Source of the DNA: Candidatus Hydrogenedens sp.
Lineage (GTDB): Bacteria > Hydrogenedentota > Hydrogenedentia > Hydrogenedentales > Hydrogenedentaceae
Direction: 5' to 3'
Length of the DNA: 520 bases
Assembly: GCA_049968235.1 (NCBI GenBank)
Contig: JBMFRC010000063.1
Location: forward strand, 1 to 520
Shown: one piece after another, positions 1-520 of the stretch
How the letters are laid out: the number at the start of each line of letters is the position of its first letter
Position numbering within the stretch: the first letter of the stretch is position 1
Notes under the pieces: model-generated
The model's input: only the letters and a program-made list of their open reading frames with translations
The model's database searches: none
Told to the model about the DNA's origin: nothing
Made by a program: the position numbers and the translations under genes

Positions 1-32
1 CCATAAGATTACTGCTTTACCTTATTAAACAT

Positions 33-245
33 ATGAATTATAACGACCTTACAGTTTTTATTGATACTAAAAAGGTTTTAGAAGACTTAGGAATAAAAAA
101 AGCTACATATCACTTATGGAAGAAAAAGTTAATAAAAGAAGGATACATAGAAAAAGTAAATCCATATGTTTATAAAATAAAGCCTTACAGTTTTATAAAG
201 GGAAATATGAAAAACACTTTAGAAAACGAGATAGGATTAAATTAA
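33..245 (+). CDS. Small (70 aa), lysine-rich helix-turn-helix DNA-binding protein; excisionase/AlpA-like or plasmid/phage regulatory protein. The 5' end is uncertain and the frame is open to the window edge.
   Basis: Only ORF in the six-frame track. It runs from ATG at 33-35 to TAA at 243-245. Codon usage matches the local AT-rich composition (AAA, TTA, ATA, GAA; Trp as TGG). Residues about 13-35 (KKVLEDLGIKKATYHLWKKKLIKEGYI) fit a helix-turn-helix pattern of helix, G-containing turn and recognition helix, followed by a Y/K-rich wing-like segment (EKVNPYVYKIKPYSF). The protein is basic overall. There is no GGAGG-like RBS upstream, and no in-frame stop between position 3 and 33, so the gene may start upstream of the window. 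Confidence 0.6.
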   Translation: MNYNDLTVFIDTKKVLEDLGIKKATYHLWKKKLIKEGYIEKVNPYVYKIKPYSFIKGNMKNTLENEIGLN

Positions 246-265
246 GATTTTTTTTTGACAGTCAA
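236..265 (-). promoter_or_regulatory. Speculative minus-strand sigma70-like promoter: -35 TTGACT (plus coordinates 260-265), 18-bp spacer, -10 TTTAAT (plus coordinates 236-241). It would be antisense to the ORF.
   Basis: Hexamers read on the reverse complement, each matching consensus at 5 of 6 positions. In DNA this AT-rich such matches arise easily by chance. Confidence 0.15.
246..262 (+). repeat. Copy 1 of the recurring motif GAT-T(9)-GAC-AGT, overlapping the palindrome.
   Basis: gatttttttttgacagt. It shares the pattern GA + T-run + 2-3 nt + AGT with 377-391 and 481-494, and is followed by an A8 tract. Confidence 0.5.
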
Positions 266-271
266 AAAAAA
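249..271. repeat. Perfect palindrome TTTTTTTT-GAC-A-GTC-AAAAAAAA with 11-bp arms, placed 3 nt after the stop codon. Candidate dimeric operator; possibly a weak bidirectional A/U-rich hairpin.
   Basis: Read directly from the sequence: T249-T256, GAC 257-259, A260, GTC 261-263, A264-A271. The reverse complement of the left arm equals the right arm. The stem would be almost entirely A:T pairs. It contains TTGACA at 255-260. Confidence 0.7.
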
Positions 272-310
272 CGGCTTTTAGATGCTATAAAAGATAAAAT
301 AAAAAAATAA

Positions 311-373
311 AATAAAGTTTATCAATTATTTAATTAAGTTAATTAAAGTTAAAATAAGTAAAGAATTGATAAA
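311..373 (+). repeat. Direct repeat copy 1 (about 60 bp), bounded by 10-bp inverted termini TTTATCAATT (318-327) and AATTGATAAA (364-373) with a 36-bp spacer. Candidate iteron or protein-binding unit.
   Basis: Core 318-342 tttatcaattatttaattaagttaa matches 408-432 with 1 mismatch in 25. The flanking 343-370 matches 433-460 at 23 of 28 positions, with no gaps. The terminal inverted repeat is perfect over 10 bp. The internal 333-352 holds a roughly 10-bp tandem (ATTAAGTTAA / TTAAAGTTAA). Confidence 0.7.
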
Positions 374-392
374 AGAGATTTTTTTAATAGTG
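374..392 (+). repeat. Copy 2 of the T-run motif: AGAGATTTTTTTA-ATAGTG, followed by an A8 tract (393-400).
   Basis: The 13-bp string agagattttttta at 374-386 is identical to 478-490. The arrangement of T7, short spacer, then A8 mimics the palindrome at 249-271 but with a degenerate centre. Confidence 0.5.
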
Positions 393-399
393 AAAAAAA

Positions 400-461
400 A
401 ATAAATCTTTATCAATTATTTAGTTAAGTTAAATAAAGAAAAAATAAATAAAAAATTGATT
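400..461 (+). repeat. Direct repeat copy 2, in 90-bp register with copy 1. Termini TTTATCAATT (408-417) and AATTGAT (454-460), again with a 36-bp spacer.
   Basis: tttatcaattatttagttaagttaa at 408-432 against 318-342, with one A/G difference. Upstream, aataaa at 400-405 matches 311-316. The terminal inverted-repeat spacing is the same as in copy 1. A third partial core, tttatcaat, begins at 469-477; it forms a 6-bp-arm inverted repeat (ATTGAT 455-460 / ATCAAT 472-477, 11-bp spacer) with the right terminus of copy 2. Confidence 0.7.
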
Positions 462-477
462 TAAGTTATTTATCAAT

Positions 478-494
478 AGAGATTTTTTTACAGT
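478..494 (+). repeat. Copy 3 of the T-run motif: AGAGATTTTTTTA-CAGT, followed by (TA)7 instead of an A8 tract.
   Basis: agagattttttta at 478-490 is identical to 374-386. CAGT at 491-494 matches the CAGT at 259-262 in copy 1. Confidence 0.5.
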
Positions 495-507
495 ATATAT
501 ATATATA
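494..507. repeat. (TA)7 dinucleotide microsatellite.
   Basis: tatatatatatata read directly at 494-507, immediately after T-run motif copy 3 and 10 nt before an ATG at 518-520. Confidence 0.8.
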
Positions 508-520
508 AGATAAGAATATG

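What the first reader, a model, noticed from the sequence alone, without database searches (positions are those of the whole stretch)
246..494. Three phased copies of a GA-T(7-9)-NN-AGT motif, the first embedded in a perfect 23-bp palindrome, define a higher-order unit of about 104-131 bp
Copy 1 (246-262) is the left half of the perfect palindrome T8GAC-A-GTCA8. Copy 2 (374-392) keeps the T7 ... A8 symmetry but with a degenerate centre AATAGTG. Copy 3 (478-494) has identical 13-bp flanks to copy 2 (agagattttttta), but its A8 partner is replaced by (TA)7. Each motif is followed about 60 bp later by a TTATCAATT repeat unit, so the whole intergenic region is a decaying higher-order tandem: motif, A-tract, boxed repeat. 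The T-run/A-run pairs, with the long A-tracts at 264-271 and 393-400, would also give strong intrinsic curvature. This looks like an old tandem duplication of a regulatory module that is diverging, and the first palindromic copy is probably the functional operator.
Basis: seen in the sequence. Interest (0 to 1): 0.5.

Follow-up and report, generated by a model that had tools for sequence, protein, structure and literature searches.

The report
Conserved palindrome punctuating tiny RepL plasmids
The three T-run motifs are one intact and two decayed copies of a 23-base palindrome that is kept letter-for-letter at module boundaries in an undescribed family of very small (1.3-3 kb) RepL plasmids, at least one from a hot spring; it is real and probably functional, but it is not the operator of the neighbouring gene and its job is still unknown.

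Summary
The window is a whole 520-bp metagenomic contig. It holds the last 80 codons of a 134-aa RepL plasmid initiator plus 275 bp of 14%-GC non-coding DNA. The motif coordinates are correct. Copy 1 (248-271) is the intact element T8-9-GAC-N-GTC-A8. That element recurs exactly in at least 12 related plasmid contigs whose RepL C-termini are only 42-96% identical to the window's. It usually lies 0-12 nt after the repL stop, or just before the repL control region. A ~55-nt long form with the same ends occupies the same slots. Copy 2 aligns with the "palindrome + GGCTTTATCAAT" composite of relatives, and copy 3 with the palindrome that precedes the "TATATAAGATAAGA" leader; both have decayed. Only a 90-bp repeat register is significant inside the window. 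The 131 and 104 spacings are that register plus indels. The claimed "box 60 bp after each motif" and the curvature claim fail. The element does not change with RepL operator class, so it is not the RepL operator. It is not an intrinsic terminator, and no representative genome carries it as a multi-copy repeat. Best reading: a class-independent duplex-DNA boundary or origin-proximal site, easily melted or cruciform-prone, whose shared identity also serves as the crossover point for module shuffling. The mechanism is inferred, not shown.

The parts
3..245 (+). 3' part (80 codons + stop) of repL, a 134-aa RepL/pSN2-type plasmid replication initiator, truncated by the contig's left end
   Evidence: No in-frame stop upstream. 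PF05732 RepL 21.8 bits vs gathering score 20.3; HTH_36. 90-96% identical to full-length 134-aa RepL of L001-L003.
246..271 (.). Copy 1: intact family element GA-T9-GAC-A-GTC-A8 (perfect 23-bp palindrome 249-271), 2 nt after the repL stop
   Evidence: The same element lies 0-12 nt after the repL stop in L002, L025, L026, L027, L041, L042, L043. ssDNA hairpin -6.7 kcal/mol, z -3.0.
272..302 (+). Leader CGGCTTTTAGATGCTATAAAAGATAAAAT..., a shortened homologue of the leader CGGC..AAGATGGGGCTATATATAAAGATAAGATAGG that follows the element in L002 (136) and L026/L027 (long form)
   Evidence: Alignment A2; flank listing.
303..381 (+). First copy of the 90-bp direct repeat (A-rich stretch, TTTATCAAT box, TTA(A/G)TTAAGTTAA, inverted AATTGAT box, AGAGAT)
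   Evidence: D1, 79 nt, 81% identity to 393-471. Diagonal score 44 vs shuffle maximum 20.
393..471 (+). Second copy of the 90-bp direct repeat
318..332 (+). Box 1, TTTATCAATTATTTA. Homologue of the conserved TTTATTTATCAAyNACTTAGTTA box that precedes the RepL operators in every low-GC relative. Matches WATCAANNNNTTR.
359..373 (-). Inverted box (TATCAATTCTTTA on the - strand). With box 1 it forms an imperfect 56-bp palindrome, 318-373.
   Evidence: inverted score 24, P about 0.03; WATCAANNNNTTR hit at 371-.
374..401 (.). Copy 2: decayed element AGAGA-T7-AATAGTG-A9 (GAC to AAT, GTC to GTG). With 402-417 it is the homologue of the composite 'palindrome + (T/C)GGCTTTATCAAT' of L005, L041 and L043.
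   Evidence: Alignment A5. Hairpin only -3.7 kcal/mol.
408..422 (+). Box 2, TTTATCAATTATTTA
449..461 (-). Second inverted box (AATCAATTTTTTA on the - strand)
465..478 (+). 14-nt insertion relative to unit 1 (TTATTTATCAATAG). It creates a third, partial + box and turns the 90-bp register into 104.
   Evidence: Alignment A4.
478..494 (.). Copy 3: truncated element AGAGA-T7-ACAGT. The G of GAC, the C of GTC and the whole A-run are lost.
   Evidence: No hairpin (-0.1 kcal/mol).
494..520 (+). (TA)7 + AGATAAGAATATG: start of the leader that in L005 (462-481) runs on into CGATATCAATTTATCAATAACTTAG, the operators, the promoter and repL

Best explanation
WHAT IT IS (well supported). The window is part of a very small RepL plasmid. 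The three motifs are one intact and two decayed copies of a family-specific element, T7-10-GAC-N-GTC-A5-10 (short form, 21-25 bp). A long form has the same 11-13-bp inverted ends separated by a 31-34-nt, moderately conserved insert. Complete relatives carry 1-3 copies, all in one orientation. The copies separate three modules: (A) TTATCAAT box + RepL operators + promoter + repL; (B) a hairpin-rich region resembling a single-strand origin (sso-like); (C) direct AACCTCTTT repeats + a GC hairpin, with or without mob or primase genes. The window's 275 non-coding bases are three tandem, diverging 'heads' of module A (element, leader, box).

HOW IT WORKS (inferred; about 0.3-0.35 for this step). The intact palindrome acts on duplex DNA as a symmetric, almost pure A/T site that melts or extrudes easily. 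It would be recognised by something that does not change with RepL specificity, such as a host protein or the replication machinery. It lies next to IHF-consensus-like TTATCAAT boxes and Rep-binding repeats, an arrangement typical of origin-proximal regions. Because it is the only stretch of perfect identity shared by otherwise diverged plasmids, it is also where modules cross over. Such crossovers or slippage produced the window's array, after which redundant copies 2 and 3 decayed.
For: Identity and context: RepL domain. The whole contig is annotated 'RepL, partial'. Relatives are closed circles of 1336-3085 bp. Conservation: the exact element is in the window, L002 (x2), L005, L025, L026, L027, L032, L040, L041 (x2), L042, L043 (x2), and the long form in L001, L004, L025, L026/27 (x2), L040, L041, L043, although RepL C-termini are only 42-96% identical to the window's. 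Position: 13 of 25 copies lie 0-20 nt after a long ORF's stop, and 8 of 12 repL genes are followed by it. Short (L002 136) and long (L026 945 / L027 1176) forms occupy the same slot. Every closed circle has a long copy just upstream of the AACCTCTTT repeats. Mosaicism: 37 element pairs share a flank on one side only and 4 on both; for example, the same downstream module follows different upstream genes in L040, L041 and L039. Window copies 2 and 3 align to orthologous slots. Class independence: five operator classes against one invariant element. Boxes: 4 WATCAANNNNTTR hits vs 0.09 expected, 0/2000 shuffles; TTA follows ATCAA-N4 in essentially all conserved intergenic boxes but rarely elsewhere. 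Duplex rather than free hairpin: short-form RNA hairpin -5.1 kcal/mol at 37 C, -1.7 at 55 C, 0 at 70 C; a close relative comes from a hot spring.
Against: No experiment or covariation shows function; the stem never varies, so pairing is untested. L001, a closed circle, lacks any short copy, so short copies are dispensable. Several copies are visibly decaying (window copies 2 and 3, the L040 half copy, L002 1145). The element is absent from GC-richer RepL relatives L006-L024, so it is not essential to RepL replication in general. No binding factor is identified, and whether the host has IHF is unknown. One-sided flank similarity is inflated by purine-rich low complexity. The source temperature of the window's own sample is unknown. 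Frequent placement just after stop codons, or just before the ribosome-binding site of a co-directional gene, would fit an RNA-level role equally well.
Confidence: 0.45

Rival explanations
1. Dedicated recombination (cassette-junction) site. The inverted ends T8GAC/GTCA8 form a hairpin or duplex site cut and rejoined by a recombinase or an HUH relaxase, or act as a palindrome-stimulated template-switch point. Modules and cargo genes are inserted, exchanged or excised at it. The window would be the product of recombination between the post-repL copy and the pre-rep copy.
For: One-sided homology at the element. Short and long forms are allelic in one slot. Cargo or accessory genes are bracketed by copies: L040 half copy - orf307 - full copy, and L027 short - primase - long. 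The same palindrome + cargo junction follows a different upstream gene in L032 and L025. Conserved inverted ends with a variable centre resemble attC architecture (recalled). MobA/VirD2 HUH relaxases are encoded by L001, L025 and L040. The window order repL-element-leader is the predicted excision junction.
Against: No recombinase gene is present on any plasmid. L027, L041 and L043 have no relaxase either. A 1-nt centre leaves no room for a conventional 6-8-bp crossover region. 23 bp of shared identity could give the same pattern passively by homologous recombination. A different GC-containing hairpin next to mob looks like the oriT.
Confidence: 0.2
2. RNA-level element. It is transcribed as part of the repL mRNA, and the U8GACAGUCA8 hairpin acts as a 3'-end stabiliser, processing site or intercistronic attenuator, like REP hairpins in operons.
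For: 13 of 25 copies start 0-20 nt after a stop codon. In L025, L026, L027, L032 and L042 the element sits 4-20 nt upstream of the Shine-Dalgarno sequence of a co-directional gene with no promoter of its own, so it must be transcribed. The orientation is the same relative to repL in all but one copy. In the six long-form sequences aligned, the stem is extended by a U-G pair that is good only on the sense strand.
Against: The T-run precedes the stem on both strands and no T-run follows it, so it is not an intrinsic terminator (0 terminator-like sites). Canonical GC hairpin + T-run terminator-like sites exist elsewhere in the family. The short hairpin is weak (-5.1 kcal/mol at 37 C, about 0 at 70 C). 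About half of the copies do not follow an ORF. The L041/L043 long forms break the U-G pair.
Confidence: 0.15
3. One reading: copy 1 is the operator bound by the upstream HTH protein (RepL), and copies 2 and 3 are weaker operators.
For: The element is dyad-symmetric and adjacent to the gene. Its half-site CAGTCAAAA resembles the class-1 RepL operator half-site CAGTCTAAAA of L001-L003 and L025, the class to which the window's RepL belongs.
Against: The element is identical in plasmids whose operators are AGTTGCA-, ATTGTAA-, GTGTAA- or AGTAAA-type and whose RepL is 42-61% identical. The half-sites face the opposite way from the true operators. It lies downstream of the gene, not at the promoter. 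L001, with the same RepL class, lacks it after repL.
Confidence: 0.08
4. Archaeal-type bidirectional terminator. Oligo-T alone terminates archaeal RNA polymerase, and T8...A8 presents a T-run on both strands right after genes.
For: T7-10 immediately after stop codons. One copy sits on a contig that otherwise looks archaeal (L039).
Against: repL promoters are near-perfect bacterial sigma-70 promoters (12/12 in L027, 11/12 in L043). Strong GGAGG ribosome-binding sites are present. The accessory genes are a bacterial-type Zn-ribbon DnaG primase and a MobA relaxase. Downstream genes would be cut off from their only promoter. The L039 junction is at a 2.9x-coverage contig end and may be chimeric.
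Confidence: 0.05
5. Chance similarity of T-run-containing low-complexity segments in 14%-GC DNA, with no real element.
For: Within the window the 104 and 129/131 registers are not significant on their own (P about 0.08 and 0.3).
Against: The 23-25-mer recurs exactly in at least 12 independent related contigs at homologous positions. There were 0/2000 shuffles with 3 motif copies. The scan of 185,579 representative genomes returned only 12 single-copy matching stretches, 2 of them the same plasmid modules.
Confidence: 0.02

Closest known systems
pSN2-family (RepL, PF05732) small plasmids of staphylococci
   Same: Small winged-helix/HTH initiator of the RepL family. Among the smallest plasmids, cryptic, with hairpin-rich non-coding DNA. 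Replication and copy control are poorly understood (PMC5703833).
   Different: Only about 30% identity to any RepL in PLSDB. Some members carry MobA/VirD2 relaxases or a DnaG-like primase, whereas the review says no pSN2-family member is known to carry mobilisation functions. Found in metagenomes, at least one from a hot spring. No T8GACNGTCA8 element is reported for pSN2, and no paper in the held library discusses the sequence (the only match is an unrelated mouse study).
Iteron-plasmid basic replicons such as pSC101 (AT-rich region + IHF site + iterons + inverted-repeat operators + rep gene); recalled from general knowledge
   Same: Same order of parts upstream of the initiator gene: A/T-only element, WATCAANNNNTTR-like box, 2-3 Rep-class-specific palindromic repeats overlapping or abutting a sigma-70 promoter, then rep.
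   Different: The A/T element here is a perfect palindrome with a GACNGTC core and is repeated at other module boundaries. No DnaA box match better than 7/9. Theta vs rolling-circle mode is unknown. IHF in the host is unknown.
REP/BIME-type intergenic palindromes of enterobacterial chromosomes
   Same: Short imperfect-to-perfect palindromes placed just after stop codons or between genes of one operon. Multiple copies, transcribed, and sites of rearrangement.
   Different: REPs are GC-rich, chromosomal and present in hundreds of copies. This element is nearly pure A/T, plasmid-borne at 1-3 copies, and is single-copy in every representative genome that has it.
Integron attC sites
   Same: Conserved short inverted ends with a centre of variable length and sequence; mark boundaries of gene cassettes (long vs short form).
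   Different: No integrase anywhere in the plasmids. The ends are unrelated to RYYYAAC/GTTRRRY. No extrahelical-base signature was examined. Only two length classes exist.
Cruciform-forming A/T-rich palindromes in supercoiled plasmids (ColE1 inverted repeat; pT181 IRII at the rolling-circle origin); recalled
   Same: 11-bp perfect arms with a 1-3-nt centre embedded in A/T-rich DNA, the condition favouring extrusion; located beside a rep gene.
   Different: pT181 IRII carries the Rep nick site and is single-copy. Here up to three same-orientation copies per plasmid argue against a nick/termination site, and RepL has no HUH nuclease domain hit.

Membership tests
RepL/pSN2-type plasmid replicon (context of the finding) | Initiator matches PF05732 above Pfam's gathering score | tested here: met
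   Window fragment 21.8 bits vs 20.3; full-length L001 protein 32.4 bits.
RepL/pSN2-type plasmid replicon (context of the finding) | Small circular extrachromosomal molecule | tested here: inconclusive
   The window contig is not closed. Relatives L001, L025, L027, L041 and L043 have terminal overlaps implying circles of 1336-3085 bp.
RepL/pSN2-type plasmid replicon (context of the finding) | Rolling-circle dso and ssoA recognisable by similarity to other RCR plasmids | not tested
   Hairpin-rich sso-like module seen, but no comparison with pSN2 dso/ssoA sequences was possible here.
Intrinsic (Rho-independent) terminator | G+C-containing hairpin followed directly by a T-run on the transcribed strand | tested here: not met
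   0 terminator-like sites in the window. On both strands the T-run is 5' of the stem and an A-run follows.
Rep-specific operator/iteron | Sequence co-varies with initiator specificity class | tested here: not met
   Five operator classes, one invariant element.
Rep-specific operator/iteron | Located at or overlapping the rep promoter, or arrayed as direct repeats in the origin | tested here: not met
   It lies downstream of repL or more than 100 bp upstream of the promoter. The arrays next to promoters are the 18-bp palindromes.
Intrinsically curved DNA | A-tracts phased at about 10.5 bp | tested here: not met
   Power 1.36 at 10.8 bp vs shuffle mean 2.04 (74% of shuffles are higher). T-run and A-run centres are 15-15.5 bp apart, about 1.5 turns. 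No full curvature model was run.
REP/MITE-like dispersed host repeat | Many copies per host genome | tested here: not met
   The scan of 185,579 species genomes returned 12 matching stretches, each with a single copy. Caveat: the true host may not be represented.
IHF-binding site (for the TTATCAAT boxes) | Match to WATCAANNNNTTR (consensus recalled from memory) with conserved specified positions and variable N4 | tested here: met
   4 hits vs 0.09 expected. In conserved intergenic boxes ATCAA and TTA are fixed and the first two N vary. However, 'AC' at N3-N4 and GTTA beyond the consensus are also conserved.
IHF-binding site (for the TTATCAAT boxes) | Host encodes IHF and the protein bends the site | not testable with these tools
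   Host unknown; MAG assignments conflict.
Xer/dif-type or other tyrosine-recombinase core site | Two roughly 11-bp arms around a 6-8-bp central region, inner arm ends ATAA/TTAT-like | tested here: not met
   By inspection of the sequence: 11-bp arms around a 1-nt centre, or homopolymer arms around GACAGTC. No resemblance to dif consensus (recalled).
Integron attC | Associated integron integrase and R''/R' core sequences | tested here: not met
   Only RepL, relaxase, primase or unknown cargo ORFs on the closed circles; the ends are unrelated.
Rolling-circle double-strand origin (nick site in a hairpin) | Single initiation/termination site per replicon, cut by an HUH or Rep_trans nuclease | tested here: inconclusive
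   Up to 3 same-orientation copies per closed circle would cause premature termination. RepL shows no nuclease domain. The long form, single in L001, L025, L041 and L043, cannot be excluded.
Known RNA family | Match to an Rfam covariance model | tested here: not met
   Only two sub-threshold chance hits, none at the element; no tRNA.

The most novel reading that the evidence does not exclude
T8-GAC-N-GTC-A8 is a previously undescribed cassette-junction element. It would be a minimal hairpin or dyad site, in short and long allelic forms, at which modules (rep head, sso-like region, iteron region, cargo, primase, mob) are cut, joined and excised among ultra-small RepL plasmids. The window itself would be the junction of a rep-module-only circle of roughly 860 bp produced by recombination between two copies, which would rank among the smallest autonomous replicons.
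Probability: 0.2. Interest if true: 0.7.

Novelty: new variant of a known kind. Interest (0 to 1): 0.5.

Why it matters
RepL (pSN2-type) plasmids are the least understood of the classical small-plasmid families: their origin, copy control and even their replication mode are unclear (PMC5703833). This family offers closed replicons of 1.3-1.5 kb with a single gene. Every non-coding part of them is delimited by one invariant 23-bp palindrome, which gives a very clean system for assigning functions by deletion. If the element is a recombination or boundary signal, it would explain how such tiny plasmids swap replication, mobilisation and cargo modules. If it is an origin component, it defines a new origin architecture for a winged-helix initiator. 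Practically, the exact 23-mer is a specific probe for finding this plasmid family in metagenomes. The results also show that these contigs are mis-binned into unrelated MAGs.

Tried and rejected
(1) blastn of the window against PLSDB plasmids and INPHARED phages found no match. tblastn of RepL gave only about 30%-identity hits in PLSDB and none in phages.
(2) Exact-pattern scans of IMG/VR for the element found nothing.
(3) A protein-guided scan of GTDB genomes found nothing.
(4) Promoter readings were checked by eye in all copies: TTGACA in the palindrome as a -35, an extended -10 in the long form, and a reverse-strand TTGACC...TAnTAT. Spacings are wrong or inconsistent, and no site is predicted there.
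(5) Short peptide after the long form (ATGGCTACC...): not conserved, and absent in L001.
(6) Covariation in the long-form stem: none, because all 13 pairs are invariant or change on one side only. This is uninformative.
(7) DnaA-box reading of TTATCAAT: at best 7/9 to TTATCCACA (recalled consensus), so dropped.
(8) Primase CTG/GTC recognition-site idea: inconsistent between forms and strands, so dropped.
(9) Rfam and tRNA scans were negative.
(10) Literature searches for the sequence and for RepL + relaxase metagenomic plasmids found nothing relevant.
(11) The 29-aa and 20-aa minus-strand ORFs in the window are low-complexity read-through and were ignored.
Full report
1. WHAT THE WINDOW IS. 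The 520 bases are an entire public contig, deposited in a 'Candidatus Hydrogenedens' MAG with its only gene called 'RepL, partial'. The + strand frame 3..245 has no stop to the left. Its 80 residues match Pfam RepL (PF05732) at 21.8 bits against a gathering score of 20.3, and also match HTH_36 and a phage replication-initiator PHROG. Full-length 134-aa homologues that are 90-96% identical over these residues lie on contigs of 947-2090 bp. The 'upstream HTH protein' is therefore the C-terminal 60% of a plasmid replication initiator. Positions 246-520 (14% G+C) are plasmid non-coding DNA.

2. CHECK OF THE OBSERVATION. The coordinates of all three motifs, the perfect 23-bp palindrome 249-271, the identical 13-mers AGAGATTTTTTTA at 374 and 478, and the (TA)7 at 494-507 are as stated. 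The second A-run is A9, not A8. The motif GAT{7,9}N{1,3}AGT occurs three times; none of 2000 dinucleotide shuffles gave three copies.

The only register that beats shuffles is 90 bp (303-381 vs 393-471, 81% identity; score 44 vs a shuffle maximum of 20). The 104 and 129/131 registers are not individually significant. Alignment of the three units shows why: unit 2 lacks 41 nt present in unit 1 (the right half of the palindrome plus the leader) and has a 14-nt insertion.

The TTATCAAT boxes sit at 319, 409 and 470 (+) and 365/455 (-). They therefore lie 73 and 32 bp after copies 1 and 2, and 11 bp before copy 3. The '60 bp later' statement is wrong. Boxes 319(+) and 365(-) form an imperfect 56-bp palindrome.

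A-tracts are not helically phased, and the T-run and A-run centres are 1.5 turns apart, so the curvature claim is not supported.

3. THE ELEMENT IS REAL BECAUSE IT IS CONSERVED ELSEWHERE. A search with full-length RepL found 31 homologues, all on contigs of 0.5-5.5 kb. I fetched 43 loci. Terminal overlaps show closed circles of 1336 (L043), 1503 (L041), 2065 (L001), 2074 (L027) and 3085 bp (L025).

In the low-GC (25-33%) subclade the sequence T7-10-GAC-A-GTC-A5-10 recurs exactly in the window, L002 (twice), L005, L025, L026, L027, L032, L040, L041 (twice) and L043 (twice). L042 has a T at the centre.

A second, about 55-nt long form keeps the same ends (T8GAC...GTCA8, extended to a 13-bp stem in six of the sequences). 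It encloses 31-34 nt of moderately conserved sequence. It is present in L001, L004, L025, L026/L027 (twice), L040, L041 and L043.

RepL C-termini in these plasmids are only 42-96% identical to the window's. Yet the element starts 0-12 nt after the repL stop in 8 of 12 plasmids. Overall, 13 of 25 copies follow a long ORF within 20 nt. Short (L002 136) and long (L026 945 / L027 1176) forms precede the same leader, so they are allelic occupants of one slot.

The element is absent from GC-richer relatives L006-L024.

4. ANATOMY OF THE PLASMIDS. Closed circles have three non-coding or coding modules separated by the element.
- Module A: TTTATTTATCAAyNACTTAGTTA box, then 2-3 tandem 18-bp palindromes (not evident directly beside the L026/L027/L042 promoter), a near-consensus sigma-70 promoter (12/12 in L027, 11/12 in L043), GGAGG, and repL.
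- Module B: a hairpin-rich 'sso-like' stretch.
- Module C: 4-5 direct GGT-N5-AACCTCTTT repeats, followed by a GC-containing hairpin plus T-run (terminator-like or oriT-like).

After these come either a MobA/VirD2 relaxase (L001, L025, L040), a Zn-ribbon/Toprim primase (L026, L027), or nothing (L041, L043). Every closed circle has a long copy immediately before module C. L001 has no short copy, so short copies are facultative.

5. HOW THE WINDOW MAPS ONTO THIS.
- Copy 1 is the post-repL copy.
- 272-350 is a shortened homologue of the leader plus box that follows the element in L002, L026 and L027.
- Copy 2 plus 402-417 aligns to the composite 'palindrome + (T/C)GGCTTTATCAAT' of L005, L041 and L043, with GAC changed to AAT and GTC to GTG.
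- Copy 3 aligns to the palindrome before the 'TATATA(A)AGATAAGA' leader, but has lost its right half.
- The last 27 bases match L005 462-481, which continues into box, operators, promoter and repL.

Box copy number does vary among relatives, from 1-3 there to 5 in the window.

6. WHAT THE ELEMENT IS NOT.
(a) It is not the RepL operator. The palindromes next to the repL promoter fall into five classes: AGTCTAAAATTTTAGACT, GTGTAATTTTTTACAC, AGTTGCATTTTTGCAACT, ATTGTAATTTTTTACAAT and AGTAAAT(n)TTTACT. They differ between plasmids, while the element is invariant across all five.
(b) It is not an intrinsic terminator. On either strand the T-run precedes the stem and an A-run follows it, and canonical hairpin + T-run sites exist elsewhere in the family.
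(c) It is not a dispersed host repeat. The scan of 185,579 species genomes returned 12 stretches, each with one copy, and two of those (L032, L039) are the same plasmid modules.
(d) It is not a known RNA family.
(e) It is unlikely to be a rolling-circle nick site. Up to three same-orientation copies per circle would terminate replication prematurely, and RepL shows no nuclease domain. The single long copy cannot be excluded.
(f) It is a poor free hairpin. The short form gives -5.1 kcal/mol as RNA at 37 C and about 0 at 70 C. The close relative L003 comes from the Arkashin Schurf hot spring, Kamchatka (PMC8468003).

7. WHAT IT MOST LIKELY DOES. Shown: invariance across initiator classes and accessory gene sets; 1-3 co-oriented copies at module boundaries; two allelic forms; adjacency to IHF-consensus-like boxes (4 WATCAANNNNTTR matches vs 0.09 expected; conserved ATCAA/TTA columns) and to Rep-type repeats; and flank homology that usually extends on one side only (37 pairs vs 4, with a low-complexity caveat).

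Inferred: the element is read on duplex DNA as a symmetric, easily melted or extruded A/T site with a GACNGTC core, by something independent of RepL specificity. Being the one perfectly shared 23-25-mer, it is also where modules recombine. The 30-33-nt difference between the forms is about three helical turns, so the two half-sites stay on one face. This is inference only.

I put about 0.9 on the identity statement and about 0.3-0.35 on this mechanism. The rivals are a dedicated recombination/cassette site (0.2), an RNA-level hairpin (0.15), the RepL operator (0.08), an archaeal oligo-T terminator (0.05) and chance (0.02).

8. COMPARISON WITH KNOWN SYSTEMS AND NOVELTY. The replicon belongs to the RepL/pSN2 kind by its initiator. 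It is only about 30% identical to any RepL in PLSDB. Some members also carry mobilisation or primase genes, which is not reported for pSN2-family plasmids. The layout of module A works like iteron-plasmid basic replicons (recalled). The element resembles REP palindromes, attC sites and cruciform-forming origin palindromes in different respects, but fails a defining feature of each (see the membership table). No paper in the held library discusses the sequence. I rate it a new variant of a known kind (a plasmid cis-acting palindrome), in a new plasmid family, with interest 0.5: a clean, strongly conserved, unexplained element, but no demonstrated mechanism.

Noticed in passing
window 1-520 (whole contig); compare L043 1-1336: The order repL -> intact palindrome -> pre-rep leader/box differs from L002, L041 and L043, where the sso-like module follows the palindrome. 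It is what recombination between the post-repL and pre-rep copies would give: a rep-module-only circle of roughly 860 bp, or a tandem of rep heads. Both contig ends fall where the sequence becomes near-identical to co-occurring relatives, which would break a short-read assembly.
   Followed up: partly
L043 1-1455 (circle 1336 bp); L041 1-1603 (circle 1503 bp): Closed circles whose only gene is a 160-161-aa RepL, among the smallest natural replicons. Each has two short copies and one long copy of the element.
   Followed up: partly
about 60-180 nt upstream of repL in L001-L005, L025-L027, L040-L043: Five classes of 18-bp palindromic repeats AGT-NNN-W6-NNN-ACT, 2-3 copies each, that differ between plasmids. 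They are probable RepL operators or iterons, and suggest specificity or incompatibility groups. L002 and L025 carry remnants of a second class.
   Followed up: partly
L043 1040-1180; L025 2100-2230; L001 1300-1420; L027 950-1030: 4-5 direct repeats GGT-N5-AACCTCTTT, about 35-40 bp apart, immediately downstream of the long element. They are conserved across RepL classes and are candidate origin iterons.
   Followed up: no
L043 1205-1268; L027 1105-1136; L001 1478-1510; L025 2295-2335; L002 20-55: A GC-containing hairpin followed by a T-run. Its stem sequence differs between plasmids but stays complementary (GCATTGC/GCAATGC, TGCAAAGC/GCTTTGCA, GCATTGCC/GGCAATG). It lies just upstream of mob in L001 and L025 but is retained in mob-less L027 and L043, so it could be a terminator or an oriT. 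L043 also has CCCCCTTCGGGGG next to it.
   Followed up: partly
L008, L010-L014 just after repL; L002 990-1025; L025 1760-1795: A hairpin with an ATTAC-containing loop (TGGGAGGGATTACTCCCA in GC-rich relatives; ggaggagtattactcactcc in low-GC ones) is conserved directly downstream of repL across the wider family, unlike the T8GAC element.
   Followed up: no
L039 1-1123 (contig JBMFIJ010000006.1, 22.7 kb, Aenigmatarchaeota MAG): The element, the sso-like module and a long copy sit at the extreme end of a contig that otherwise encodes archaeal-looking genes (a Ku-like ORF and FlaI/FlaJ-like ORFs, judged by eye). The join runs through a Lys/Glu-rich low-complexity tail at 2.9x coverage. It is either a chimeric assembly or a genuine integration.
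   Followed up: partly
L025 893-1708; L032 80-516; probably L005 and L040 downstream ORFs: A cargo ORF built of repeated '..AIFD..G..IS.WFD.I' units has no Pfam match. It is always preceded by the short element plus a GGAGG site, and follows different upstream genes in different contigs.
   Followed up: no
L026 2-604 and L027 1965->835 (wraps the circle): Some family members replace the relaxase with a Zn-ribbon + Toprim DnaG-like primase, flanked by a short copy and a long copy of the element.
   Followed up: partly
window, L032, L039 (record titles): These tiny related contigs are binned into Hydrogenedens, Ratteibacteria and Aenigmatarchaeota MAGs respectively. The assignments contradict each other, so plasmid binning here is unreliable and the host is unknown.
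   Followed up: no
L040 1041-1065: A half copy of the element (GAATTCTA-ACAGTC-A8, T-run lost) lies after repL, and a full copy lies after the next ORF (2009). The cargo gene is therefore bracketed by a decayed copy and an intact copy.
   Followed up: no
L033 and L036 (goat-gut Clostridia MAGs), L034, L037, L030: The exact T8GACAGTCA8 23-mer also occurs once each in a few unrelated genomes, in L033/L036 directly after a GC hairpin. That seems more than chance would give for a 23-mer (my rough estimate, not computed). These are probably unrelated T-run/-35-like contexts and were not examined further.
   Followed up: no
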